Assembly: GCA_029225065.1 (NCBI GenBank)
Contig: JAQXVT010000050.1
Coordinates: forward strand, 3,359-67,358
Direction of reading: 5' to 3'
Source of the DNA: Lachnospiraceae bacterium
Lineage (GTDB): Bacteria > Bacillota > Clostridia > Lachnospirales > Lachnospiraceae
Length of the DNA: 64,000 nucleotides
Shown: positions 25,604 through 36,239 of the stretch, one piece after another
Numbering within the stretch: position 1 is the stretch's first letter
How the letters are laid out: each line of letters starts with the position of its first letter
Position numbers and translations under genes: made by a program
The notes under the pieces: model-generated
Told to the model about the DNA's origin: nothing
The model's input: only the letters and a program-made list of their open reading frames with translations
Databases searched by the model: none

Positions 25604-26608
25604 ATGAAAAAAAACAAAGTATGGTACGTAACGAAAAAGCTCCTGATCTTTGTGGTCAGCCTGCTGCTTTTGTCGGTTATTACCTTTTACATTTCAAGGC
25701 TTGCGCCGGGTGATCCGCTGGTATCGTATTACGGCGACCGGGTGGAAAAAATGAGCACGCAGGAGCGGAACTGGGCAGAAGAGAAGCTTGGGCTGCATGA
25801 GCCGATCACGGTTCAGTATGTCCGCTGGCTTGGCAATGCATTGCATGGAGAGTTCGGAATTTCCTATAAATATAAAACAGACGTGCTGGAAGTAATCGCA
25901 GGCAGAATCGGGAACACACTGATTCTGGGCGGTGTCGGTTTTATTCTTATTTTTGTGCTGGCACTGCTGCTGGGCGTCTGGTGTGCGTGGTACGAAGACC
26001 GCCTGCCGGACCGGATTGTCTGCCGCATCGGAACTGTGACGAGCTGCATCCCGGAATTTTGGATGTCGCTGCTGTTTATTCTGGTTTTTTCGGTACAGCT
26101 TCGCCTGCTGCCAAGCAGCGGTGCATACAGCATCGGAAAAAGCAATGATATCCTGGATCGGATCCGGCATCTGATTCTGCCAATCACGATCGTGGTACTG
26201 GGGCATCTGTGGTATTACGCATATATGGTTCGCAACAAGCTGCTTGAGGAGGTGCGCTCAGATTATGTCCTGCTTGCAAAATCAAAGGGGCTTGGAAAGA
26301 AAAAAATTCTGTTCGGTCATTGCCTGCGGAATATCCTGCCGTCGTATCTGAGTATCATGGCAATCTCCGTGCCGCACGTGCTCGGCGGCACATATATCAT
26401 TGAGACGGTATTTTCGTATCCGGGCATCGGTACACTCTCCTATGAAAGCGCACGTTATAAGGATTACAACCTGCTTATGGTGCTGTGTATTCTCTCCGGA
26501 GCGATCGTCATCCTCTGCAATATGATTGCACAGGCCATCAATGAGCAGATCGATCCAAGAATCCGGGCAAACGAGATGACAGAAGAATCGGAGGTGGTGA
26601 AGCAATGA
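25604..26608 (+). CDS. DppB/OppB-type permease
   Basis: APGDP, QYVRWL, YVLLAKSKGL, ETVFSYPGIG. Confidence 0.93.
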   Translation: MKKNKVWYVTKKLLIFVVSLLLLSVITFYISRLAPGDPLVSYYGDRVEKMSTQERNWAEEKLGLHEPITVQYVRWLGNALHGEFGISYKYKTDVLEVIAGRIGNTLILGGVGFILIFVLALLLGVWCAWYEDRLPDRIVCRIGTVTSCIPEFWMSLLFILVFSVQLRLLPSSGAYSIGKSNDILDRIRHLILPITIVVLGHLWYYAYMVRNKLLEEVRSDYVLLAKSKGLGKKKILFGHCLRNILPSYLSIMAISVPHVLGGTYIIETVFSYPGIGTLSYESARYKDYNLLMVLCILSGAIVILCNMIAQAINEQIDPRIRANEMTEESEVVKQ

Positions 26609-27639
26609 GATTTTTGAGACATCACCTGTATGACGGCGGAGGAGAGCCGGAAGACGATCTTTTTGAAAGGAACCGAAAAGAAGCTTTTGAAAATGCAAAG
26701 ATAGAGATTAATGAAAAATCACGGGAATCAGGGGAAGCACTCAAAAAAGAGGAACACAACGATGCGTTCCGGATCGTCGGCATTCAGCCAGATACGACGG
26801 CTTTGGCGCCTCTGAAAAAGAAGTGGTACAAAGACAAGCCGATACTTTCGATGGTGTTCCTTGCACTGGTCATCGGCGGCTGTCTGTGCTGTGATCTGAT
26901 CATGACAAAAAATCCGACCTATATGGATCTGATGAATTACAATCGTGCGCCGGATCGGGAGTTTTTATTTGGTACAGATACAATGGGGCGGGATATCTTC
27001 TCAATGATCTGGTATGGAGGACGTATTTCACTGTTTATCGGACTGTTTTCTACACTGATTTCGACCGTAATTGCGGTCGTATTCGGCGGGATCAGCGGCA
27101 TTGCACCGCAGTGGCTGGATACGCTGCTTATGCGGCTGACCGAAATTCTTCTGAGCATCCCAAATCTGCTGCTTGTAATTTTGCTGCAGGCCATCCTTGG
27201 GACAGCAAACGTAGTGACAATCTCGATTGTGATCGGTGTGACGAGCTGGCCGAGCATTGCAAAGGTCGTGCGCACCGAAGTGCGCCAGATCAGAAGCAGC
27301 GAGTACGTGATTGCATCGAGATGCATGGGCGGCGGATTTTTCCACCTGCTGTGGCATCATCTGGCTCCGAATTTCGTCTCCTCAATCATGTTTATGGTTG
27401 TGATGAATATCCGCAGCGCAATCGTATCCGAATCCACGTTGAGCTTCATGGGAATCGGTCTTCCGCTGGAAATTATTTCCTGGGGAAGTATGCTTTCTCT
27501 TTCCGAAAAAGCGCTTCTGACCGGCTCGTGGTGGATCATCCTGATTCCGGGTGTATTTTTGGTAGTTACATTGCTGTGCATGACAGAGGTAGGAAATTAT
27601 CTGAGAAGACAGGTGAATCAGAAAGAACGGAATCTGTGA
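26605..27639 (+). CDS. DppC/OppC-type permease with charged N-terminal extension
   Basis: FGTDTMGRD, WPSIAKVVR, ESTLSFMGIG. Confidence 0.93.
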   Translation: MRFLRHHLYDGGGEPEDDLFERNRKEAFENAKIEINEKSRESGEALKKEEHNDAFRIVGIQPDTTALAPLKKKWYKDKPILSMVFLALVIGGCLCCDLIMTKNPTYMDLMNYNRAPDREFLFGTDTMGRDIFSMIWYGGRISLFIGLFSTLISTVIAVVFGGISGIAPQWLDTLLMRLTEILLSIPNLLLVILLQAILGTANVVTISIVIGVTSWPSIAKVVRTEVRQIRSSEYVIASRCMGGGFFHLLWHHLAPNFVSSIMFMVVMNIRSAIVSESTLSFMGIGLPLEIISWGSMLSLSEKALLTGSWWIILIPGVFLVVTLLCMTEVGNYLRRQVNQKERNL

Positions 27640-27702
27640 AAATTTGTGCAGCGGAGATTCGCAATCCGCTATGCTGCCTGCAGGATTATAAGAAATAAGC
27701 TG

Positions 27703-27814
27703 ATAAGGGGATCGGCCCATAAGGGGATCGGCTCATAAGGGATCAGCCCATAAGGGGATCGGCCCATAAGGGATCGGCCCATAAGGGATCCTCCCGCAAG
27801 CGGGCCCCTCCTTA
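27703..27814. repeat. Six tandem 15-16-bp repeats (ATAAGGG(G)ATCGGCCC) plus a terminal hairpin
   Basis: Units at 27703, 27719, 27735, 27750, 27766 and 27781, then a CCCGC-AA-GCGGG stem closed by ATAAGG/CCTTAT. Confidence 0.9.
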
Positions 27815-27819
27815 TGGGA

Positions 27820-28575
27820 TTAGATATTATACTCGTAGTCATCGCGCAGTACCCGGTGCAGGAACTGCGAGGTCCGCTCTTCTTTTGGGCGGGTGAAGAT
27901 CTCGCGGGGAGAGCCTTCCTCTACGACGACCCCTCCGTCCATGAAAATGACGCGGCTGGCTACCTGCTGGGCGAAGGTCATTTCATGGGTGACAACGATC
28001 ATGGTCGCACCCTCACGTGCGAGATTTTTCATAACATTTAAAACCTCACCGACCAGCTCCGGGTCAAGTGCGGAGGTCGGCTCGTCAAAGAGCAGGACAT
28101 CCGGGTTTACTGCGATGGCTCTTGCAATACCAACGCGCTGCTGCTGACCACCGGAGAGCTGGGAGGGATAGTAGTCATAACGCTCCGATAAGCCAACCTT
28201 ATCGAGCGTTTTTTTTGCGATTATTTCGGCCTCTTTTTTCGGAACCTTGCGTGCAATGACAAGCCCCTCCATCACGTTCTCAAGAGCTGTTTTATTCTGG
28301 AACAGGCTGTAGTTCTGAAATACGAAGGCTGTTTTTTTGCGGACCTGATTGACGGTGGATTTTGACGCTGTTTTCAGGTCTGTGTGAATCTCATCAAAAT
28401 CCATGGTGCCCTGATCTGCGCGCTCCAGAAAGTTCAGGCAGCGCAGCAGCGTCGTTTTTCCTGAGCCGCTCGGACCGAGGATGACGATGATATCTCCTTT
28501 TTCTACCTTGAGATCAACGCCGCGCAGCACGTGGTTGGCGCCGAAGGATTTTTGCACATTTTTGACTTCAAGCAT
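27820..28575 (-). CDS. Polar amino-acid ABC ATPase (TcyN/GlnQ type)
   Basis: [26 protein letters not shown]. Confidence 0.95.
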
Positions 28576-28657
28576 AAGAAACCTCCCTGTGAGTGAAAGC
28601 AGATTTCGATATCCGCTTTATTCAGATTTTGCGGTGTGCCGGATCTGATGGCCTGTG

Positions 28658-29425
28658 TTATCTGGCGGATGCCATATGACGGCGATATGCAGATGCGGCA
28701 TTTTTTTCGTGCCTCTGAGCGGCAGTATTTTTATAAGAAGAAAGCGCGTGCTCCAGAAGGTGAAAAAGGAGCTGCACAAGTGAGCACAGCAGGATGTAAA
28801 CGAAAAAGATCACAAGATACGCTTCCAGGTAATTGTAACCGAATGATGCGTCGATTTTTGCGATCGCGGTGACATCCTTTACGGTCATCATAAATGCGAG
28901 TGACGTGCTTTTCAGAAGATTCACAGAAGCGTTGCACAGATTCGGCAGTGCTGCGGTGAGCGCCTGCGGAAGAATGATGCGCACGTAAGCCTGACGGGCG
29001 TTTAAGCCGATGGAAAGTGCTGCTTCCAGCTGTCCGGCCGGGACAGTGGAGAGTGCCGATCGGAAGACCTCGGAGAGGACTGCCGTTGTATTGAGGGTGA
29101 AAACGATGTAAGCGTAGATGATCGGATCGGTGCGGAAAATATTGAACGAGAGTCCGAGCACATTTCGGATGATATAATTTAATGTGGTCGGGAGCAGGCT
29201 GTAGAGAAAAAGAATCTGCAGAACGACCGGCGTTCCACGGATGAACGAAACATAAACGGTGATGATTCTGCGGGCAATTCCCCAGCCGGAGGATTTGGAC
29301 AGTGCCATAAAAAATCCGATCGGGGAGGAGAGCAGAAGCGTGATGATGGTAAGCTTCAGCGTAGTAGGAATTCCGTGAAGTACATCAAGAAAGGTTGTCC
29401 ACATAAAAGCGGTATCTAACTGCAT
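28658..29425 (-). CDS. Polar amino-acid ABC permease
   Basis: FIRGTP, GQLEAALSIGL, LLKSTSLAF. Confidence 0.92.
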   Translation of the reverse strand: MQLDTAFMWTTFLDVLHGIPTTLKLTIITLLLSSPIGFFMALSKSSGWGIARRIITVYVSFIRGTPVVLQILFLYSLLPTTLNYIIRNVLGLSFNIFRTDPIIYAYIVFTLNTTAVLSEVFRSALSTVPAGQLEAALSIGLNARQAYVRIILPQALTAALPNLCNASVNLLKSTSLAFMMTVKDVTAIAKIDASFGYNYLEAYLVIFFVYILLCSLVQLLFHLLEHALSSYKNTAAQRHEKNAASAYRRHMASAR

Positions 29426-30138
29426 TTTCTCACCTCCGTATACACCTGGCCGTTTCGGCCTCTGGAAAGCTGCAGCTCAAGCGCGCCGAAGCCTTTTTCT
29501 ACCAGAATGGTCAGCGCCCAGTACAGAAGGAAGAGTGCAAGATAGACCTCCAGACTGTAGGAGCCCTGATTTTGACCAATGATCAGCTGTCCCTTACCCA
29601 TGATGTCGATCAGTCCGATCGTGTAGGCAAGAGAGCCTTCCTTCATAAGGCTGATCAGAGAGTTGGTAAAATTTGGAATCACGACGCGTATGCACTGTGG
29701 GAGCACGATCCGCCGAAACGCCTGAAACTCTGTCAGTCCGATGCTGACGGCCGCCTCGCGCTGCCCTTTGTCGATCGCTTCATAGGCGGAGCGGAAGCCC
29801 TCGGCCATATTTGCGGAGAAAAGAATGGAAAACGTCGTGATCACGAAAAAGCCCTTGCTTGCGTCATTGATATTGATGCCGAACCACAGAAGAAACTCCG
29901 GCAGACCGTAGTAGACGATGAAAAGAAGTACGATCGACGGAACACAGCGTGTAAGATAGATGTAAAGGTTGGCCAGAGCTGCGCCGACCTTTCTTTTCCG
30001 GATTTTTGCGGCTGCTAAAAGCAGTCCGAACAGACTTCCGAAAAATACTGTGCCGATCACCATTTCTGCGGTGACAAGAAGATATGGTATGAGCTGCGGC
30101 AGCACCTCAAGAATGTAGGCCGGATGAAACGGACGCAT
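29416..30138 (-). CDS. Polar amino-acid ABC permease
   Basis: GQREAAVSIGL, KEGSLAYTIG. Start moved to MRPFHP. Confidence 0.92.
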   Translation of the reverse strand: MRPFHPAYILEVLPQLIPYLLVTAEMVIGTVFFGSLFGLLLAAAKIRKRKVGAALANLYIYLTRCVPSIVLLFIVYYGLPEFLLWFGININDASKGFFVITTFSILFSANMAEGFRSAYEAIDKGQREAAVSIGLTEFQAFRRIVLPQCIRVVIPNFTNSLISLMKEGSLAYTIGLIDIMGKGQLIIGQNQGSYSLEVYLALFLLYWALTILVEKGFGALELQLSRGRNGQVYTEVRKCS

Positions 30139-30325
30139 AATCGGCCCTCCCTTCGAAATTGAGCCAGATGACGGGAAACCCGCCATCTGACGATGTGAAA
30201 TATCATAATCCTGCAATCTTATAAGGAATCCTGTGTCAATGGGAGGATGTCTTATGGGCTGCCTGTTTTATTCTGTCAAAGAGGATATTCGCAGCCTCGC
30301 AGGTGACTTGCTTGACTCGGTTTAA

Positions 30326-31195
30326 TTACAGCTCGTCGCCGATCTGGTAACCCTCCGGTACGTAGTCAAACAGGCTGTATCCGAAATATTCCTGCTGCAG
30401 TTTTTCCAGAGTACCGTCTGCTTCCAGCTGTTCCCATGCCTGGTCGTAAGCGTCTGCCAGTTCCTGGTTGCTGCTGTTGAAAAGCGGCCAGGTCGGGATG
30501 CCCTCATACGTTACGTAGCTTAACTGATCTGCGTACTGGTGATATTCACCGTCCTCTGATTCAACGTTTGCCTCAAAGGATGTCTTGATGTTGAAATATG
30601 CATCATAGCGGCCCTCCAGCACCCACTGATAAGCGTCGGCCGCCTCAAACTGGTCGCCGGCAATCAGGTCGATCGGCTTGTCCGGATGATTTTTGTTGTA
30701 ATTGTCAACGATCGCGTACTGTGCATTCTGTGCGCCGATCGGGACAAGGCTGCCACTGTAGTCGGCAAAGGATTCGAGGTCAGTAATCTTGTCCGCATCC
30801 TCACTGCGGATCACGATACCGATAATGCTGGTGCCGATGTAATGCTGCGGAAATACAAATTTATCCGCGCGGGCCTCGGTCCACCAGACACCTTTTGTGC
30901 CGACATCGTATTTGCCGGATTCCACGCCGATGAGCAGGTCATCATCTGTCGTGCCGACGTATTCAAATTCATACTGATCGAGCAGTTCATCCACTGCTTT
31001 AAGTACAGCAACCTCGTAGCCGTCGGATTCCCCGTTTTCATTGATAAAATCATAAGGCTTGTAGGCCTGGGTATGGGCAACGGTCACCTTTGTGACACCA
31101 TCCTCTGCGGCAAAAGCGGCCGGAGCGAGAATGGAAGATGCGAAAACAGAGAGAGAAGCGAGAAATGCAAGCTTGCGAAATGATGTATGAGTCAT
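30326..31195 (-). CDS. Amino-acid ABC substrate-binding protein, TcyJ/TcyK/YxeM-like (cystine or sulfur-amino-acid class, tentative)
   Basis: Family 3 SBP motifs (KPYDF, DGYEVAVLKAV, GVESGKYDVG). Specificity is inferred from resemblance only. Confidence 0.8.
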   Translation of the reverse strand: MTHTSFRKLAFLASLSVFASSILAPAAFAAEDGVTKVTVAHTQAYKPYDFINENGESDGYEVAVLKAVDELLDQYEFEYVGTTDDDLLIGVESGKYDVGTKGVWWTEARADKFVFPQHYIGTSIIGIVIRSEDADKITDLESFADYSGSLVPIGAQNAQYAIVDNYNKNHPDKPIDLIAGDQFEAADAYQWVLEGRYDAYFNIKTSFEANVESEDGEYHQYADQLSYVTYEGIPTWPLFNSSNQELADAYDQAWEQLEADGTLEKLQQEYFGYSLFDYVPEGYQIGDEL

Positions 31196-31274
31196 GATAA
31201 AAGTCCTCCTTATTTATAAGTATGTACCTGAAATTTTTTATAAATGAGTCACTCTGACCGGAGCTGCCGGTAAA

Positions 31275-32261
31275 TTATCGGCCGTACTCCTGTGCAGCCT
31301 CGCGCACCCAGTTTAAATGTTCGATCGGTGTGTTCTCAGGAATTGTGCAGTCGGCACCGAGGATGACACCGGTCGTACCGGCTTCGTCGAGCAATCGCTT
31401 TGCTTCTGCCTGAATTTCTTCCTTTGTGCCGCGGTACAGGACACTGTTTTTAGTATTGTCGAAGCCACCGATTACTGCGCGGCCGCCGAAAAGTGCTTTG
31501 CCCTCTTTGAGGGAAACTTCTTCGACAACAGCGGCCCAGTTGATGACTTTTACATCATAGTCCTTATAAATGGAGAGGTTATTTCGCGCGCCCTCATAGC
31601 CGCAGATATGTAAAATGTTATAGTCGCTCACAGCATTTGCGGCATTTAAGACACCCTGTTCACTCGGTGTGATGAGTGTGTGGTATTCTTCCGCGGTAAT
31701 AGTCGGGTCCTGAATGTTTTTGGTACTCAGATAGATGCCGTCTGCCTTGCCATCGGTGATAATCTTTACCGCCAGCTTTGCGAGGTCCTGCTTAATCACA
31801 TTTAAGGCATAAGCAAGCTCCTGCGGTGCTTCCTTCACAAGCTTTGCAAGTGTCAGCTGATTGCCGGAATCCTCAAGTGCGAAGCCAAGCACAGTGACCG
31901 GGGCAAAAAGGTTGTAGAAGGTGGCTGTCTCGCCGTGGAGCCGGTCGGTCAGTTCCTTTACAAGGGAAACCTGCTGGTCGATCCATTCGTCCACAAGGCC
32001 GCTCTTTGCTTTTTTCAGATCCTCCACGGAAGTGATGGTTTCCAGCGTCGGATTTGGATAATGAAAATATCCGTCACTCATCAGCTTTACAAAATCAGGA
32101 TGGAATTCATCGAAGTACTTCTGGTGTCCTTCGATATTTTTGCGGCGGACCTCCGGATCATTTACGAAAAGCTGATCCGGTGCGAAGTGAAACCAGAAGC
32201 CGACCGGTACGCGGGTTGTTTCCTTATTGTCAAATGCATCAAATACAAACTGCTTGCTCAT
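31275..32261 (-). CDS. Uroporphyrinogen decarboxylase / MtaA-CmuA methyltransferase-fold protein
   Basis: DFVKLMSDG, ILHICG, INWA, ILGADCTIP. Start moved to MSKQF. Confidence 0.85.
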   Translation of the reverse strand: MSKQFVFDAFDNKETTRVPVGFWFHFAPDQLFVNDPEVRRKNIEGHQKYFDEFHPDFVKLMSDGYFHYPNPTLETITSVEDLKKAKSGLVDEWIDQQVSLVKELTDRLHGETATFYNLFAPVTVLGFALEDSGNQLTLAKLVKEAPQELAYALNVIKQDLAKLAVKIITDGKADGIYLSTKNIQDPTITAEEYHTLITPSEQGVLNAANAVSDYNILHICGYEGARNNLSIYKDYDVKVINWAAVVEEVSLKEGKALFGGRAVIGGFDNTKNSVLYRGTKEEIQAEAKRLLDEAGTTGVILGADCTIPENTPIEHLNWVREAAQEYGR

Positions 32262-32334
32262 AATAAAAATCCTCCTCAAAATAAATGATAGAAATATCTG
32301 GTCTGAAACCAGTTTTAAAAGTACAGTGGAATAT

Positions 32335-32358
32335 AAAAAAAACAGGCCATCAGGCCTG
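32335..32358 (-). terminator. Intrinsic terminator inside the operon leader (candidate attenuator)
   Basis: Minus strand reads CAGGCC-TGAT-GGCCTG-T8. Confidence 0.85.
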
Positions 32359-32396
32359 CCGGATTCTTCTTTGCCGTTTTCCTCTGCTGTGGAAAG

Positions 32397-32537
32397 TCAG
32401 CGAATCGTATATTCAGACTCTGGTGTGCGTTTATTCTTCGGTTTTGGGGTAGCAAAACAAGACATGCAACACATACACATACACATGCCTTCCATACACA
32501 TCAGATTCATCATAGTTGCAGCTTTTGTCTGTCTCAT
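32397..32537 (-). CDS. Met/Cys-rich leader peptide, 46 aa, absent from the ORF track
   Basis: Hand translation MRQTKAATMMNLMCMEGMCMCMCCMSCFATPKPKNKRTPESEYTIR*, with AGGAGG RBS. Confidence 0.8.
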   Translation of the reverse strand: MRQTKAATMMNLMCMEGMCMCMCCMSCFATPKPKNKRTPESEYTIR

Positions 32538-32618
32538 TTTTACTCCTCCTTCTGGATTTTTACTGAATTTTTATATTCCTAGTTTCCATACAAGAATGGT
32601 ATGAATTAGGTTGAGAGA

Positions 32619-32647
32619 ATAATAGCACAGAAGAGAAGGGTTGTCAA
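32619..32647 (-). promoter_or_regulatory. Sigma-A promoter of the leader peptide and operon
   Basis: TTGACA-17-TATTAT on the minus strand. Confidence 0.8.
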
Positions 32648-32760
32648 CAGGAAAATAGAGAAAATTTTGAATCTGGACGAAAACGACTCCTACATTGCAA
32701 ATGCGAAAAATTTGTAGTACCTTATGTAGAGAAGAAGCAATATATGGGAGGTAGACAAAA

Positions 32761-33939
32761 ATGGAGGAAGTACTTCGAATCACCGTTCGGCTCGAGGAGA
32801 TTTGCGAAACAAAAGGGCATTTGGGGAGCGCACGTATGATCGCATTTTCCGGGGAGGCGGATGGGCCTTATTTTACAGGAAAAATATTGCCGCACGGAGT
32901 TGACACGCAGACGGAAAAAACAGGGGAGACGATGCAGCTTTCTGCAAGGTACATGCTGTCAGGCACGGATCATACCGGACAGCCCTGTCGTCTGTTTATT
33001 GAAAACAACGGGACAGAGGACAAAAACGGAATTGTGACGAGCCCGCAGATCTATACGGACAGTGAGGCGCTGGCATGGATGGAAAAAGCCGTGCTGACGG
33101 GGAGCGTAGAGGGCTGCGGAGAAAATCAGGTTGTGATTCACATCAGAAGGGCCGAAGCGCAGCAATACGCCTTTCGCGTGGAGAAGTGCAGCATTGCAGT
33201 GGGAGACAACCGGATTTTTGCGTCATTGTATCTGCCGGAGTGTGAGCAGAGAGTCCCGGCGGTTGCCCTGAGCCATGGCTATAACGGAAAGGGAAATGAT
33301 TTCAGGGAGGAGGCTGCGTATTTTGCAGCAAATGGAATTGCGGCCTGTACCTTTGACTTCTGCGGAGGAAGCGTGGGAGCAAAAAGCAGCGGCAGCACAA
33401 AAGAAATGTCGGTGCTCACAGAAAAAGAAGATTTGAAGGCAGTCGTATCATTTTTGAAAGAACGGCCGGAAATTGAGAAGGACAGCCTGTTTCTTTTCGG
33501 AGGAAGCCAGGGCGGTTTTGTAAGCCTGCTGACAGCGGCAGAATGCCCGGAGGAGATTCGTGCGCTGGTCCTTTACTATCCGGCGCTTTGCATCCCGGAT
33601 GACTGGAGAAAGGAATATCCGGATCCGTCGCAGATCCCGGAAAGCAGAGAATTCTGGGGGATGGAGCTTGGCAGGTGCTATTTTGAGGCGGCAGTGCGCC
33701 TGGATGCGTTTCAGCCGTTTGAGACGGTAAAACAGAAAATCCTGCTTTTCCACGGAGATCAGGATGAGATTGTGCCGGTTTCGTATGCAGAGAAAGCAGC
33801 GCAGGTCGGAAAAAATGTGGAACTGGAAATTCTGCCCGGGGAGAAGCATGGTTTTTCCGGGCAGGCGGGCAGATATACCATGGAAAAAGCGCTTGCGTTC
33901 ATGAAAAGCATTTGCCGTCAGAATGGGAATCTGTTATGA
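32761..33939 (+). CDS. DUF3237-like domain fused to an alpha/beta hydrolase (esterase)
   Basis: N-terminal GKILPHGVDTQ...LSARYML segment, then SHGYNG, GGSQGG nucleophile elbow, HGDQD and EKHGF. Confidence 0.8.
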   Translation: MEEVLRITVRLEEICETKGHLGSARMIAFSGEADGPYFTGKILPHGVDTQTEKTGETMQLSARYMLSGTDHTGQPCRLFIENNGTEDKNGIVTSPQIYTDSEALAWMEKAVLTGSVEGCGENQVVIHIRRAEAQQYAFRVEKCSIAVGDNRIFASLYLPECEQRVPAVALSHGYNGKGNDFREEAAYFAANGIAACTFDFCGGSVGAKSSGSTKEMSVLTEKEDLKAVVSFLKERPEIEKDSLFLFGGSQGGFVSLLTAAECPEEIRALVLYYPALCIPDDWRKEYPDPSQIPESREFWGMELGRCYFEAAVRLDAFQPFETVKQKILLFHGDQDEIVPVSYAEKAAQVGKNVELEILPGEKHGFSGQAGRYTMEKALAFMKSICRQNGNLL

Positions 33940-34060
33940 TAATGAGGCGGCATCCATGCCGGAGCCGCCGAAGTGAAAAAGCAAAAGAGAGCGGAGGCTT
34001 CCTGGGCGGAAGGACTGACAGCAGCAAAGGGAGCAGCCGAGGCAGATAGGAGGAACAAAA

Positions 34061-34684
34061 ATGAAAGTATTACTCGTAAACGGAAGCCCACATACGAACG
34101 GAAGCACGTATACGGCGCTGCATGAAATGGAGCAGGTATTTGCGCAGGAAGGAATCGAGACAGAAATCCTGCAGATTGGAAAAGAAAGCATCCGCGGCTG
34201 TATCGCCTGTCAGGGCTGCCGCAAAAAAGGAAGCTGTGTATTTGAGGATGCGGTAAACGAGGCGGCTGCAAAATTTGCGGCGGCAGACGGCCTCGTAGTC
34301 GGCAGCCCGGTCTATTATGCATCGGCAAATGCGACACTGATCGCCTTCCTCGACCGGCTGTTTTACAGCACCGGCTTTGACAAGACCATGAAGGTTGGCG
34401 CATCGGTCGTATCAGCCAGACGCGGAGGCCTTTCTGCGACCTTTGATGAGCTGAACAAATACTTTACGATCTCAGGAATGCCGGTGGCATCGGGGCAGTA
34501 CTGGAACAGCATTCACGGCAACAACGCAGACGAGGCAGTGCAGGATCTGGAAGGACTGCAGAGCATGCGGACGCTGGCGCGCAACATGAGCTTTCTGATG
34601 AAGAGCATCGCGCTTGGAAAAGAGAAGTACGGACTGCCGGAGAAGGAAGCGAGAGTTGGTACAAACTTTATCCGGGAGATTTGA
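34061..34684 (+). CDS. Flavodoxin-like / iron-sulfur flavoprotein
   Basis: NGSPH, CIACQGCRKKGSC, GSPVYY. Confidence 0.9.
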   Translation: MKVLLVNGSPHTNGSTYTALHEMEQVFAQEGIETEILQIGKESIRGCIACQGCRKKGSCVFEDAVNEAAAKFAAADGLVVGSPVYYASANATLIAFLDRLFYSTGFDKTMKVGASVVSARRGGLSATFDELNKYFTISGMPVASGQYWNSIHGNNADEAVQDLEGLQSMRTLARNMSFLMKSIALGKEKYGLPEKEARVGTNFIREI

Positions 34685-34865
34685 TCTGGAAACAGGAGAA
34701 ATTTTATCTGTGAGAGATGGAAGCCGACACAACTTTATCTGCGGGATACAAAAAGAATCCCTGCAAATGTGATTCATGTGAGGTGCGTATGAGAGAAAAA
34801 AGAAACAGCTATGGAGACTGCGTCTGTCAGAGCACAAGAATTATAAAAGAAATGGAGAATAAAAT

Positions 34866-36239
34866 ATGAAATATGATGTCATTATTATCGGCGCTGGCCC
34901 GGGCGGCATTTTTTCGGCGTATGAGCTGATGAAAAAGAGCCCGGAGCTGAAAGTGGCGGTCTTCGAGGCCGGTTACTCTCTGGAAAAAAGGCGCTGTCCG
35001 ATCGACGGCAAGAAGGTAAAATCCTGCATCAAATGTCCGACCTGCGCGATTATGAGCGGATTCGGCGGAGCAGGTGCTTTCTCCGACGGAAAATATAACA
35101 TTACGAACGATTTCGGCGGAACGCTGTATGAGCATATCGGACGCAAAGAGGCGATCGACCTGATGTACTACGTCGATGAGATTAACGTCAGCCACGGCGG
35201 AGAGGCCACAAGAATGTTCTCGACCGCGGGCACGAAATTCAAAAAGCTCTGCATGCAGAACAAGCTGAAGCTGCTCGATGCATCGGTGCGCCACCTTGGT
35301 ACCGACATCAATTACATCGTGCTGGAAAATATGTACAATGAGATGAAGTCCCATATCGATTTCTATTTCCATACGCCGGTGGAGCATGTGGAAAAGCTGG
35401 AAGAGGGCTACCGCATCCACTACGGCGAGGACAAATATGAGGACTGCGAAAAATGTATCATTTCCGTTGGCCGAAGCGGCAGCAAGTGGATGGAGAAGGT
35501 CTGCCAGGAGCTGGATATCCCGACAAAATCAAACCGCGTGGACATCGGTGTGCGCGTCGAGCTTCCGGCTGTCATTTTTTCTGATCTGACCGACGAGCTG
35601 TACGAGAGCAAGATTGTATACCGCACGGAGAAATTTGAGGACAATGTGCGTACTTTCTGTATGAACCCGAACGGCATTGTCGTAAATGAAAATACGAATG
35701 GCATTGTCACGGTAAACGGACACAGCTATGAGGGTGCGGAAAAGCAGACCGAAAACACGAACTTCGCGCTGCTCGTTGCAAAGCATTTCTCGGAGCCGTT
35801 CAAGGACAGCAACGGCTATGGCGAGAGCATCGCGCGTCTCTCAAACATGCTGGGCGGAGGCGTAATCGTGCAGCGGTTCGGTGATCTGGTGAGAGGACGC
35901 CGAAGCAATGCAAAGCGAATCGAGGAGGGATTGGTGACCCCGACACTCGCAGCGACACCGGGCGATCTGAGCCTTGTCCTGCCTAAGAGAATCCTTGACG
36001 GCATCATCGAGATGATCTATGCGCTTGACAAGATCGCTCCTGGTACGGCAAACGACGATACGCTTCTCTATGGCGTGGAAGTCAAATTCTACAACATGGA
36101 AGTGGAGATTGATGAAAATTTGGAGAGCCGCTACAAGGGACTGTATATCATCGGCGACGGAAGCGGTGTGACCCATTCGCTGTCGCACGCGTCGGCGAGC
36201 GGTGTGTATGTGGCGCGGAAGATCGCGGAGCAGCAGTAG
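34866..36239 (+). CDS. Uncharacterised FAD-dependent oxidoreductase
   Basis: GAGPGG Rossmann motif, CxxCxxC, GGAGAFSDGK, FCMNP, YGVEVKFY, GDGSG. Confidence 0.88.
   Translation: MKYDVIIIGAGPGGIFSAYELMKKSPELKVAVFEAGYSLEKRRCPIDGKKVKSCIKCPTCAIMSGFGGAGAFSDGKYNITNDFGGTLYEHIGRKEAIDLMYYVDEINVSHGGEATRMFSTAGTKFKKLCMQNKLKLLDASVRHLGTDINYIVLENMYNEMKSHIDFYFHTPVEHVEKLEEGYRIHYGEDKYEDCEKCIISVGRSGSKWMEKVCQELDIPTKSNRVDIGVRVELPAVIFSDLTDELYESKIVYRTEKFEDNVRTFCMNPNGIVVNENTNGIVTVNGHSYEGAEKQTENTNFALLVAKHFSEPFKDSNGYGESIARLSNMLGGGVIVQRFGDLVRGRRSNAKRIEEGLVTPTLAATPGDLSLVLPKRILDGIIEMIYALDKIAPGTANDDTLLYGVEVKFYNMEVEIDENLESRYKGLYIIGDGSGVTHSLSHASASGVYVARKIAEQQ

What the first reader, a model, noticed from the sequence alone, without database searches (positions are those of the whole stretch)
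32335..32647. Met/Cys-rich leader peptide plus terminator: candidate ribosome-coupled sulfur-amino-acid attenuator
Seen on the minus strand, in order: a TTGACA-17-TATTAT promoter, an AGGAGG RBS, a 46-aa ORF missed by the ORF track (MRQTKAATMMNLMCMEGMCMCMCCMSCFATPKPKNKRTPESEYTIR), and 38 nt later a CAGGCC/GGCCTG-U8 terminator ending ~74 nt before the operon. Codons 9-27 are 14/19 Met or Cys. The UCUUGUUUUGC at codons 26-29 can pair with GGCAAAGAAGA just 5' of the terminator stem. Established: amino-acid-rich leader peptides drive trp/his-type attenuation, whereas Firmicutes usually control Met/Cys genes with S-box riboswitches, T-boxes or CymR. Inference: ribosome stalling on Met/Cys codons under sulfur limitation allows read-through into a UROD-fold enzyme and a cystine-like ABC importer, giving a dual Met+Cys sensor. 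Alternatives are a metal-binding peptide or a RiPP precursor.
Basis: partly seen in the sequence, partly recalled or inferred. Interest (0 to 1): 0.9.

Follow-up and report, generated by a model that had tools for sequence, protein, structure and literature searches.

The report
Met/Cys-rich leader peptide transcription attenuator
A tiny upstream gene packed with methionine and cysteine codons, followed by a switchable transcription stop signal, most likely lets this Lachnospiraceae gut bacterium turn on a sulfur-amino-acid uptake and salvage operon only when charged Cys (and perhaps Met) tRNA runs short; the principle is known, but this form and host group are new.

Summary
On the minus strand there is a near-consensus promoter, an AGGAGG ribosome-binding site, a 46-codon ORF with 14 Met/Cys in 19 codons, and a strong intrinsic terminator. 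These precede a five-gene operon encoding a Zn-type URO-D/MtaA-like enzyme and a TcyJKLMN-like ABC importer.

- **Rarity:** the Met/Cys tract is the top outlier in all six frames of the 3.18-Mb genome.
- **Close relatives:** three further lineages from metagenomes keep the ORF. Their tract length differs only by in-frame 3/6-nt indels.
- **Conservation:** the best-conserved segments are the last eight codons and the terminator block. These two can pair as a three-helix antiterminator that hides the terminator's 5' arm.
- **Mechanism:** a ribosome stalled on Met/Cys codons leaves this antiterminator intact. A ribosome at the stop codon melts it.
- **Other lineages:** sequence-unrelated Cys-rich small ORFs precede the orthologous module in other Lachnospiraceae and in Treponema (6 of 36 lineages; about 0.13 expected).

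I read it as a ribosome-mediated Cys(+Met) attenuator (confidence about 0.7). Met sensing is unproven. No expression data could be obtained.

This is a new variant of a known kind. Polycysteine leaders are published for mycobacteria and for Rhodobacterales cysS.

The parts
32619..32647 (-). Sigma-70-type promoter, TTGACA-17-TATTAT, with TG before the -10
   Evidence: 11/12 match. The -35, -10 and spacing are conserved in L048, L050, L051, L052, L085 and L086.
32578..32610 (-). Hairpin/palindrome at the start of the 5' UTR, CCUAAUUCAUAC...GUAUGGAAACUAGG. It is possibly also a DNA operator of the CCTA..TAGG type seen at this module's promoters in other lineages.
   Evidence: It forms in every fold. 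CCTAY-N7-RTAGG-like palindromes sit at or near the promoter in Treponema loci and in L032, L100, L101 and L103. The CCTA-N(7-11)-TAGG form occurs only 7 times in the whole own genome. Function not tested.
32545..32550 (-). Shine-Dalgarno AGGAGG of the leader ORF, 7 nt before the ATG
   Evidence: Invariant in all seven related leaders.
32397..32537 (-). Leader ORF, 46 codons plus UGA
   Evidence: Homologous ORFs P0001-P0004 (70-98% identity) are called in metagenomes and lie in front of the URO-D-like gene wherever the contig reaches it (L050 ends at the leader ORF). L052, L085 and L086 show the same arrangement.
32457..32513 (-). Regulatory tract, codons 9-27: 8 Met and 6 Cys codons in 19
   Evidence: the genome-wide top outlier. 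Tract length varies by in-frame 3- and 6-nt indels among lineages.
32351..32422 (-). Proposed antiterminator.
- P1: CAG-A-GUCUG (32422..32414) pairs with CAGGC-CUG (32358..32351), which is the terminator's 5' arm plus two loop bases.
- P2: GAUUC (32406..32402) pairs with GAAUC (32366..32362).
- P3: a hairpin at 32401..32373 whose 5' base contains the UGA stop codon.
   Evidence: It is the co-transcriptional MFE whenever the Met/Cys tract is masked, in all four lineages. It is also the RNAalifold consensus. Both strands of P1/P2 are nearly invariant (6-7% of columns changed) while the flanks change at 25-64%. P3 is kept despite sequence change. Its stability alone is not exceptional (z = -1.45).
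32333..32360 (-). Intrinsic terminator, GGCAGGCC-UGAU-GGCCUGUU plus U8
   Evidence: 8 pairs, 5 of them GC. Hairpin energy -13.4 kcal/mol. Invariant in all related leaders that reach it.
31275..32261 (-). First structural gene: a 328-aa URO-D-fold protein of the MtaA/CmuA (MT2) type with the zinc motif H218-x-C220...C305
   Evidence: PF01208 E = 1e-19. Weak MtaA/CmuA NCBIfam hits below cut-off. LHICG and GADCTIP align to MtaA 4ay7. HxC...C is kept in all 100 homologous segments where all three positions aligned; 3 more lack the third position.
27820..31195 (-). ABC importer: SBP_bac_3 binding protein (31195..30326), two permeases (30216..29416 and 29425..28658) and an ATPase (28575..27820). Best NCBIfam matches are cystine TcyL/TcyN-type.
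   Evidence: The five genes travel together in nearly all orthologs of at least 44% identity across five phylogenetic groups.

Best explanation
This is a classical ribosome-mediated transcription attenuator whose regulatory codons are Cys and, probably, Met.

Transcription starts about 75 nt upstream of a 46-codon leader ORF, and a ribosome loads at the AGGAGG site. What follows depends on tRNA charging.

- **Plentiful Cys-tRNA and Met-tRNA:** the ribosome runs to the UGA stop, which lies in the base of hairpin P3. There it occupies or unwinds the 5' strands of helices P1, P2 and P3. The segment CAGGCC is then free to pair with GGCCUG, and RNA polymerase terminates at the U8 tract, 71 nt before the operon.
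- **Scarce charged tRNA:** the ribosome stalls somewhere in codons 9-27, at least 35 nt upstream of P1. The three-helix antiterminator forms as soon as the terminator's 5' arm is transcribed. The terminator cannot fold, and polymerase reads into the URO-D/MtaA-like gene and the TcyJKLMN-like importer genes.

The operon products most likely import and convert a cysteine-related sulfur compound.

Shown here:
- the anatomy of the leader;
- its rarity in the genome and its conservation pattern among close relatives;
- the alternative pairings;
- recurrence of unrelated Cys-rich leader ORFs before orthologous modules;
- the zinc-thiol motif of the enzyme.

Inferred:
- translation of the ORF;
- stalling on the tract;
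- coupling of ribosome and polymerase;
- a contribution of the Met codons;
- the transported substrate.
For: 1. Every part of an attenuator is present and in the right order.
2. The Met/Cys tract is the single strongest such window in six frames of the own genome.
3. Three further lineages (L048; L049/L052/L085/L086; L050) keep the promoter, SD, ATG and frame. Tract length changes only by 3- or 6-nt indels.
4. Codon changes between the window and L049 are 3 synonymous against 7 non-synonymous (read). The peptide sequence itself is therefore not constrained.
5. The last 8 codons and the terminator block are the two most conserved segments: 7% and 6% of columns changed, against 18-64% elsewhere in the leader. 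They are complementary to each other.
6. With the tract masked, the co-transcriptional MFE is the P1-P2-P3 antiterminator in all four lineages. With a ribosome at the stop codon only the terminator remains. RNAalifold returns the same structure.
7. The orthologous module is preceded by unrelated Cys-rich small ORFs:
   - L099: ..KMCCMCRCC..
   - L101: ..NMNCCCLCCC.., with a terminator
   - L032: ..SCCCRMKLCIHRACCC.., with a terminator, from a same-genus genome
   - seven Treponema loci (five lineages in the census)..RMCLCC..
8. In a census, 6 of 36 lineages (5 unrelated peptide families) have an SD-led small ORF with at least 4 Cys in 9 codons within 20.4 kb scanned. The own-genome rate predicts 0.13, which gives a Poisson P of about 3e-7 by my arithmetic.
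9. In L032, stalling at the first CCC gives an antiterminator as the MFE even in the full-length leader.
10. The regulated genes fit a sulfur-amino-acid role:
   - the HxC...C zinc-thiolate motif is invariant;
   - the transporter's best matches are cystine-type;
   - in L117 the module directly follows a PF01053 Cys/Met PLP enzyme gene.
11. No riboswitch or T-box occupies this leader.
Against:
- The antiterminator alone is not unusually stable (z = -1.45; 17 of 200 shuffles fold as well).
- At equilibrium the terminator conformer is favoured (-24.4 against -19.1 kcal/mol), so the switch has to be kinetic.
- Covariation is limited to P3, because only three or four close lineages exist.
- A 1:2 'anti-antiterminator' pairing appears in the window and L049 folds but not in L048 or L086.
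- From my own knowledge (Johnson et al. 2020), RNA polymerase outruns ribosomes in Bacillus subtilis. Tight transcription-translation coupling therefore cannot be assumed in Firmicutes.
- Most orthologous modules (30 of 36 lineages) lack such a leader.
- Many loci carry a palindromic operator-like motif at the promoter, so a repressor may be the main regulator.
- Met enrichment outside the window family is modest: 8 internal Met in 127 residues.
Confidence: 0.7

Rival explanations
1. The small ORF encodes a functional Cys/Met-rich micro-protein, such as a metal- or thiol-binding peptide, a RiPP precursor or a partner or substrate of the MtaA-like enzyme. The terminator merely sets a high peptide-to-enzyme ratio.
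For: - 'Precursor gene, leaky terminator, then enzymes' is a common RiPP layout (my own knowledge).
- In the Treponema family the small ORF FEKLVRENFRNGxMCLCC is under amino-acid-level purifying selection: 101 synonymous against 32 non-synonymous pairwise codon differences. At least some of these peptides therefore matter as peptides.
- A Met residue sits next to the Cys cluster in all five families.
Against: - There is no maturation enzyme, protease or exporter in the operon. The ABC system has a binding protein and is an importer.
- The peptide families are unrelated in sequence and length, and 30 of 36 module lineages lack one.
- Within the window family, substitutions are mostly non-synonymous outside the tract.
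- The invariant part is the 3' end, which is complementary to the terminator arm.
- Making a Cys-rich peptide from a Cys-acquisition operon would be wasteful.
Confidence: 0.1
2. Regulation is mainly by a DNA-binding repressor or activator at the CCTA..TAGG palindrome next to the promoter. The terminator is a constitutive partial stop or the end of a small RNA, and the ORF is a by-product of a TG-rich repeat.
For: - CCTAY-N7-RTAGG-type palindromes lie on or just after the promoter in Treponema loci and in L032, L100, L101 and L103, including loci without any leader ORF.
- The window has CCTAATTC...CTAGG at about +3 to +35.
- The CCTA-N(7-11)-TAGG form is very rare genome-wide: 7 in 3.18 Mb.
- Part of the tract is an (ATGTGT)3 microsatellite.
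- In Streptococcus mutans the tcyDEFGH cysteine-transport operon is controlled by the LysR-type regulator HomR (PMC5131005, citing Sperandio 2010).
Against: - A repressor does not explain the conserved SD, ATG and frame, the in-frame indels, the invariant complementary segments, or the repeated independent appearance of Cys-rich ORFs.
- The two mechanisms are compatible, so dual control is likely and this is not a true alternative.
Confidence: 0.1
3. The leader ORF is sensed by the ribosome, but the output is not the terminator/antiterminator choice modelled here. Possible outputs are mRNA stability, Rho-dependent termination, translational coupling, or a nascent-peptide arrest that responds to a small molecule rather than to tRNA charging.
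For: - L099 has a Met/Cys-rich ORF but no obvious terminator before the first gene.
- Treponema leaders have a conserved hairpin at the stop codon but no U tract, and a conserved peptide.
- Mycobacterial polyCys small ORFs act on translation, not termination (10.1101/834739).
- The antiterminator z-score is weak.
Against: - The window family has a textbook U8 terminator that is invariant.
- That terminator's 5' arm is complementary to the invariant ORF end.
- L032 and L101 also have U-tract terminators.
Confidence: 0.1

Closest known systems
Classical leader-peptide transcription attenuators of enterobacterial amino-acid operons (trpL, hisL, thrL, ilvL; multivalent in thr and ilv)
   Same: - SD-led short ORF with a cluster of regulatory codons.
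- Intrinsic terminator before the structural genes.
- Antiterminator sharing the terminator's 5' arm.
- Stop codon placed so that a terminating ribosome disrupts the antiterminator.
- Possible sensing of two amino acids, as in thr and ilv.
   Different: - The regulatory codons are Cys and Met. To my knowledge no Met-codon leader has been described.
- The host is a Lachnospiraceae (Firmicutes), where T-boxes and riboswitches dominate.
- The target is an importer plus an orphan enzyme, not a biosynthetic pathway.
- The 1:2 pause hairpin is not clearly conserved.
Mycobacterial polycysteine leaderless sORF attenuators (Ms5788A, 'Cys ribulon'; Canestrari et al., bioRxiv 10.1101/834739) and the Cys leader peptides predicted in Actinobacteria (Seliverstov et al. 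2005, PMC1262725)
   Same: A Cys-codon-rich short ORF upstream of cysteine-related operons, with ribosome stalling on Cys codons as the signal.
   Different: - Those are leaderless and act by unmasking the downstream ribosome-binding site (translation level), and no terminator was found.
- Here there is a 75-nt 5' UTR, an SD, a U8 terminator and a mixed Met/Cys tract.
uORFC-8-2 motif upstream of cysS in Rhodobacterales (Brewer et al. 2021, PMC8632094)
   Same: A predicted ribosome-mediated transcription attenuator with Cys codons and an intrinsic terminator.
   Different: - That motif has two tandem Cys codons in alpha-proteobacteria and controls the Cys-tRNA synthetase gene.
- Here there are 6 Cys and 8 Met codons, in Firmicutes, controlling an uptake/salvage operon.
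- There is no sequence relationship, and no Rfam hit.
His leader peptides of hisS/hisZ paralogs in Bacilli (Naville and Gautheret 2010, PMC2965389)
   Same: A 'regular' leader-peptide attenuator in Firmicutes standing where a T-box would be expected.
   Different: A different amino acid, different genes and a different class (Bacilli, not Clostridia).
Streptococcus mutans tcyDEFGH operon of the HomR regulon (Sperandio et al. 2010, as cited in PMC5131005)
   Same: A Cys-starvation-induced cystine-type ABC importer operon.
   Different: It is controlled by a LysR-type activator, and no leader peptide has been reported.

Membership tests
Leader-peptide (ribosome-mediated) transcription attenuator | Short ORF with its own ribosome-binding site and a cluster of codons for the regulating amino acid(s) | tested here: met
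   AGGAGG-7 nt-ATG and 14/19 Met/Cys codons. The window is the genome-wide top outlier. SD, ATG and frame are conserved, with in-frame indels.
Leader-peptide (ribosome-mediated) transcription attenuator | Intrinsic terminator between the leader ORF and the structural genes | tested here: met
   8-bp stem with 5 GC pairs plus U8 at 32360..32333. It is invariant in relatives.
Leader-peptide (ribosome-mediated) transcription attenuator | Antiterminator mutually exclusive with the terminator | tested here: inconclusive
   P1 pairs CAGAGUCUG with CAGGCCUG, the terminator's 5' arm. It is the MFE in truncated and masked folds of all lineages and the alifold consensus, and both strands are nearly invariant. 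However, z = -1.45 and there is no covariation in P1/P2.
Leader-peptide (ribosome-mediated) transcription attenuator | Geometry: a stall at the regulatory codons spares the antiterminator, and a ribosome at the stop codon disrupts it | tested here: met
   The last Met/Cys codon ends 35 nt before P1. The UGA lies in the base of P3, between the P2 and P3 5' strands.
Leader-peptide (ribosome-mediated) transcription attenuator | Regulatory-codon content conserved while the peptide sequence is not | tested here: met
   Five unrelated Cys-rich leader families precede the orthologous module. Within the window family there are 3 synonymous against 7 non-synonymous codon changes.
Leader-peptide (ribosome-mediated) transcription attenuator | Read-through increases on starvation for the cognate amino acid | not testable with these tools
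A wet-lab test is needed.
Mycobacterial polycysteine sORF attenuators (Cys ribulon) | Leaderless transcript beginning at the small ORF's start codon | tested here: not met
   There are about 75 nt between the -10 and the ATG, with a conserved SD.
Mycobacterial polycysteine sORF attenuators (Cys ribulon) | Output through sequestration of the downstream gene's ribosome-binding site | tested here: not met
   The URO-D SD (GAGGAGG) lies 71 nt past a U8 terminator, and no pairing that hides it was seen in the sequence between the terminator and the ATG (no fold covered this region).
S-box (SAM) riboswitch / T-box leader | Match to the Rfam covariance model in the leader | tested here: not met
   There was no Rfam hit at E <= 1 in 26000..36000. 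The same genome has 1 SAM riboswitch and about 12 T-boxes elsewhere.
RiPP precursor peptide | Adjacent maturation enzyme(s), protease and/or exporter | tested here: not met
   The operon encodes only a URO-D-fold protein and a binding-protein-dependent importer. Neighbouring genes encode a peptidase S9, an FMN reductase and an FAD protein on the other strand.
MT2/MtaA-type zinc methyltransferases (for the first operon gene) | URO-D fold with the H-x-C ... C zinc ligands | tested here: met
   PF01208 E = 1e-19. LHICG and GADCTIP align with MtaA 4ay7. H/C/C is kept in all 100 homologous segments where all three positions aligned; 3 more lack the third.
MT2/MtaA-type zinc methyltransferases (for the first operon gene) | Score above the curated family cut-off, and a corrinoid-protein partner | tested here: not met
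   NCBIfam MtaA/CmuA scores are 40-50 bits against cut-offs of 235-600. No corrinoid protein gene is in the module. It is a distinct orphan subfamily.

The most novel reading that the evidence does not exclude
The tract is a true bivalent sensor. Met codons as well as Cys codons would stall the ribosome, making this the first leader peptide that reads methionine supply. The dual signal would match the chemistry of the operon: the importer brings in an S-alkylated cysteine, such as S-methylcysteine from plant diets, and the orphan Zn-thiol MtaA-like enzyme moves the methyl group to homocysteine, yielding cysteine and methionine together. A Met codon abuts the Cys cluster in all five unrelated leader families (GMCMC, KMCCMC, NMNCCC, RMKLC, RMCLCC). 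That pattern would then be selected and not accidental.
Probability: 0.2. Interest if true: 0.75.

Novelty: new variant of a known kind. Interest (0 to 1): 0.55.

Why it matters
- **Regulation in Firmicutes:** leader-peptide attenuation is usually considered rare in Firmicutes, where sulfur amino-acid genes are assigned to S-box, T-box or protein regulators. This element and its convergent counterparts in other Lachnospiraceae and in Treponema show that ribosome-read Cys-rich leaders have arisen repeatedly on one mobile uptake/salvage module in gut and rumen anaerobes.
- **Function of an orphan enzyme:** the leader gives a regulatory 'label' (induced by Cys and perhaps Met shortage) to a Zn-dependent MtaA-like enzyme family with no assigned function. 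That narrows the search for its substrate.
- **A testable question:** if the Met codons are functional, this would be the first methionine-sensing leader peptide, testable with a simple reporter.
- **Annotation:** such unannotated small ORFs should be called as regulatory leaders, not as hypothetical proteins or RiPPs.

Tried and rejected
1. **Rfam scans.** The leader at E <= 1 and 16 orthologous loci at gathering score (a first attempt, exceeded the size limit) gave no riboswitch, T-box or known leader.
2. **Full-length thermodynamic folds** with a masked ribosome. The terminator always wins at equilibrium, so no switch is visible. Only co-transcriptional (truncated) folds reveal the antiterminator.
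It is not conserved and does not compete with the terminator.
4. **A 'Cys ribulon' in the own genome.** SD-led small ORFs with Cys clusters were listed and the best inspected. All others lie inside long ORFs or in a lanthipeptide cluster, so this leader is the only one of its kind in the genome.
5. **The CCTA..TAGG palindrome as a regulon marker** in the own genome. Too few and too heterogeneous hits to define a regulon.
6. **Same-genus orthologs**. The module is patchy (nearest 52% identity), so genus-level comparison of the same leader was impossible. Metagenome contigs supplied the close relatives instead.
8. **Literature.** Searches for a Cys/Met leader in Clostridia, Lachnospiraceae or Treponema found none. 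A search on the enzyme's function found nothing specific.
Full report
**1. What is there**

The minus strand of 32330-32650 reads, in order:
- TTGACA-17-TATTAT, 11/12 consensus positions, with TG before the -10;
- a roughly 75-nt 5' UTR that begins with a hairpin/palindrome, CCUAAUUCAUAC...GUAUGGAAACUAGG;
- AGGAGG, 7 nt before an ATG;
- a 46-codon ORF, MRQTKAATMMNLMCMEGMCMCMCCMSCFATPKPKNKRTPESEYTIR, ending in UGA;
- 38 nt later the hairpin GGCAGGCC-UGAU-GGCCUGUU followed by U8;
- 71 nt later GAGGAGG and the ATG of a 328-aa gene.

Codons 9-27 hold 8 Met and 6 Cys codons. I scanned every stop-free 19-codon window in all six frames of the organism's own 3.18-Mb assembly. This window ranks first with 14 Met/Cys codons; the runner-up has 11 and lies out of frame in other sequence. 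Only 18 nt are a perfect (ATGTGT)3 repeat. No Rfam family matches the region even at E <= 1.

**2. What it controls**

The downstream genes are:
- a URO-D-fold protein (PF01208, E = 1e-19) whose only family-level similarities are weak, sub-threshold matches to MtaA/CmuA methylcobamide:CoM methyltransferases;
- an SBP_bac_3 binding protein;
- two permeases whose best match is the cystine permease model;
- an ATPase whose best match is TcyN.

The enzyme aligns with MtaA (PDB 4ay7) over LHICG and GADCTIP, the H-x-C...C zinc ligands. These three residues are kept in all 100 homologous segments where all three positions aligned.

The five genes stay together in almost all orthologs of at least 44% identity. 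This holds in Lachnospiraceae, Treponema/Spirochaetales, Megasphaera/Acidaminococcus, Desulfovibrionaceae and Sporolactobacillus, with varying gene order. In one Lachnospirales genome (L117) the module directly follows a PF01053 Cys/Met-metabolism PLP enzyme gene.

The module is patchy. It occurs in 14 of 61 close relatives at any similarity, and the nearest same-genus ortholog is only 52% identical. It therefore looks like a mobile sulfur-amino-acid uptake/salvage cassette with an orphan zinc-thiol enzyme.

**3. Close relatives of the leader**

A protein search with the 46-aa peptide found four clusters at 70-98% identity. Three of their contigs show the URO-D-like gene directly behind the leader (L048, L049, L051); L050 ends at the leader ORF. 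A metagenome scan with the enzyme added L052, L085 and L086.

The alignment shows:
- Promoter hexamers, SD, ATG and reading frame are kept.
- The Met/Cys tract differs in length only by 3- or 6-nt indels.
- Many substitutions change the amino acid. Between the window and L049 there are 3 synonymous and 7 non-synonymous codon changes, including M25K and C27Y.
- In L086 the stop codon is mutated (UGA to AGA) and the ORF runs four codons further, to a UAA inside the next hairpin loop.

The fraction of changed alignment columns by segment is:

| Segment | Columns changed |
|---|---|
| Codons 1-8 | 0.25 |
| Met/Cys tract | 0.18 |
| Codons 28-38 | 0.27 |
| Codons 39-46 plus stop | 0.07 |
| Next hairpin and spacer | 0.62 |
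| GAAUCC...terminator...U tract | 0.06 |
| Terminator to URO-D SD | 0.64 |

The two nearly invariant blocks are complementary to each other.

**4. The switch**

Full-length equilibrium folds always contain the terminator, whatever is masked. I then folded the transcript only up to the terminator loop, which is what exists before the 3' arm is made. With the Met/Cys tract covered by a ribosome, the minimum-energy structure is one three-helix element:
- P1: CAG-A-GUCUG (codons 39-41) pairs with CAGGC-CUG, the terminator's 5' arm plus two loop bases.
- P2: GAUUC (codons 44-45) pairs with GAAUC.
- P3: a hairpin whose base contains the UGA.

The same structure is obtained for all four lineages and as the RNAalifold consensus.

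P3 keeps its helix although its sequence differs:
- window: GCUG-AC-UUUCC / GGAAA-A-CGGC;
- L048: GCUG-A-UUUUCC / GGAAAA-CAGC;
- L049: GCUGAUUUC / GAAAUCAGC.

P1 and P2 do not vary, so they offer conservation but no covariation.

A ribosome stalled with any of codons 9-27 in its A site ends at least about 20 nt before P1. A ribosome at the stop codon covers the 5' strands of P2 and P3 and abuts P1, leaving only the terminator. Conformer energies are -19.1 kcal/mol for the antiterminator and -24.4 for the terminator. As in trp, the choice must therefore be kinetic.

Two weaknesses remain:
- The antiterminator on its own is not exceptionally stable (z = -1.45).
- A segment-1:segment-2 pairing (GUGUAU...AUAUAC) appears without a ribosome in the window and L049 but not in L048 or L086. 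The no-translation state is therefore uncertain.

It also decays in L049, from -8.9 to -3.5 kcal/mol.

**5. The decisive comparison**

The more distant orthologous modules mostly have no such ORF. Several, however, carry sequence-unrelated ones:
- L099 (60% identical enzyme): MRTIRKETVNSIKECNRKMCCMCRCCTHNPMQK.
- L101: MNVYLNNLQVNMNCCCLCCCNNYNMASFMRKLTERFHCRIT, followed by a U7 terminator.
- L032 (a same-genus genome): TTGACA-17-TATCAT, an SD, MFYARIRRTDESCCCRMKLCIHRACCCATSIC and a U7 terminator.
- Seven Treponema loci (five lineages in the census): MKFFFEKLVRENFRNGRMCLCCLFN and variants.

I ran a census with one fixed rule: an SD-led ORF of 10-70 codons with at least 4 Cys in 9 codons, within about 450 nt upstream of the first module gene. 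Six of 36 dereplicated lineages were positive, representing five unrelated peptide families, in 20.4 kb scanned. The same rule finds 40 such ORFs in 6.36 Mb of strand in the own genome, nearly all inside coding regions. That gives 0.13 expected and a Poisson P of roughly 3e-7 by my arithmetic.

In L032, masking the first CCC cluster gives an antiterminator that uses the terminator's 5' arm as the MFE even in the full-length leader. L101 shows a weaker version.

Cys enrichment is universal in these leaders. Internal Met counts are:
- window: 8 of 45 residues;
- L099: 3 of 32;
- L101: 3 of 40;
- L032: 1 of 31;
- Treponema: 1 of 24.

A Met abuts the Cys cluster in every family.

**6. Interpretation**

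The best reading is a ribosome-mediated transcription attenuator that opens the operon when Cys-tRNA, and plausibly Met-tRNA, is short (confidence about 0.7).
- A functional micro-protein or RiPP is unlikely. There is no maturation or export gene, the ABC system is an importer, the peptide families are unrelated, and substitution within the family is near neutral.
- A protein regulator probably acts as well. Palindromes of the type CCTAY-N7-RTAGG lie over or just after the promoter in most Treponema and several Lachnospiraceae loci, with or without a leader ORF.
- The window's 5' UTR starts with a longer CCTA...CTAGG palindrome. The CCTA-N(7-11)-TAGG form is very rare in the genome.
- The genome also has one SAM riboswitch and about twelve T-boxes elsewhere, so the leader peptide is an addition to the usual Firmicutes repertoire, not a replacement.

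**7. Known relatives and novelty**

Published precedents are:
- Cys-codon leaders predicted in Actinobacteria (PMC1262725);
- Cys-codon leaders shown in mycobacteria, where they are leaderless and act on translation (10.1101/834739);
- a two-Cys-codon leader with a terminator predicted upstream of cysS in Rhodobacterales (PMC8632094);
- 'regular' His leaders predicted in Bacilli (PMC2965389).

Notes from this scan list many polycysteine attenuators in other phyla. Two notes cover the same URO-D/ABC cassette.

My literature searches found no report of a Cys or Met leader peptide in Clostridia, Lachnospiraceae or Treponema, and none of a leader with Met regulatory codons. I therefore class it as a new variant of a known kind.

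Noticed in passing
L013, L054, L055, L057, L060, L070, L080 (Treponema loci), 100-230 nt upstream of the URO-D-like gene: A conserved 25-26-codon small ORF, M-x-x-[FY]-FEKLVRENFRNG-x-MCLCC-x-x-x. It is under amino-acid-level purifying selection: 101 synonymous against 32 non-synonymous pairwise codon differences, with Arg coded as CGC, CGT or AGA. A hairpin starts at the stop codon (GCYG..CRGC, with compensatory changes) and there is no U tract. It looks like a peptide-dependent (arrest-type?) Cys leader and not a simple codon counter.
   Followed up: partly
L101 about 1355-1410 of the locus (second small ORF), L102/L004, L103, L118: directly upstream of the module: A second family of 16-23-codon small ORFs has a basic stretch and a single Cys near the end:
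- MEFIQLRKQNCESDRCYT
- VNQVTYIKKNWESKRCLV
- MESIKLRRKNGKSERC
- MNRKYVNYRHLNSRNKHKICDSR

The shared motif is [KR][KR]-N-x-x-S-x-R-C. It may be another leader type for the same module.
   Followed up: no
Promoter regions of L010, L013, L028, L032, L057, L060, L070, L100, L101, L103; window 32578..32610: Palindromes of the type AACCTAYTAA-N4-5-RATAGGTA (CCTAY-N7-RTAGG) overlap the -35 and/or lie just after the -10 of the module's promoter across phyla. They probably form the operator of an unidentified regulator. Only one strict copy exists elsewhere in the own genome (C70:32947).
   Followed up: partly
L032 401-470; L099 and L102 upstream regions: A recurring element consisting of a long hairpin (ATATCATAGG...CCTATGATAT or GTGTCATAGG...CCTATGACAC) followed by AAAAAC-N-CTCCGCG-N-GGAT-GTGCA. 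It occurs in three unrelated Lachnospiraceae loci near the module. It may be a small mobile repeat or an unknown RNA motif.
   Followed up: no
L086 about 905-925 (leader ORF end): In one metagenomic lineage the leader's UGA is mutated to AGA. The ORF ends four codons later at a UAA in the P3 loop, and the change also breaks one P3 pair. It is a natural variant that could test how stop-codon position affects attenuation.
   Followed up: partly
Window 32552..32573 (minus-strand 5' UTR): A direct repeat, CTGAATTTTTA x2, goes with a 10-nt insertion (ATATAAAAAT) that is absent from the other lineages. In the full-length MFE this A-rich stretch pairs with the terminator's U tract. Its significance is unknown.
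   Followed up: no
Own genome contig C73, about 47.2-50.0 kb (outside the window): A class II lanthipeptide-like cluster: a precursor-like ORF, MKTGKNEMKDEIILELEEAEKLTERREDITVKASSIFGGPYMTVICC, followed by an 866-aa LanM-like protein with CHG motifs. It turned up while screening Cys-rich small ORFs.
   Followed up: no
L117 (revcomp 1-590): In a Lachnospirales genome the SBP/URO-D/permease module is fused to the 3' end of a PF01053 Cys/Met PLP-enzyme gene with only a 12-nt gap. This links the orphan enzyme to C-S lyase or cystathionine chemistry.
   Followed up: partly
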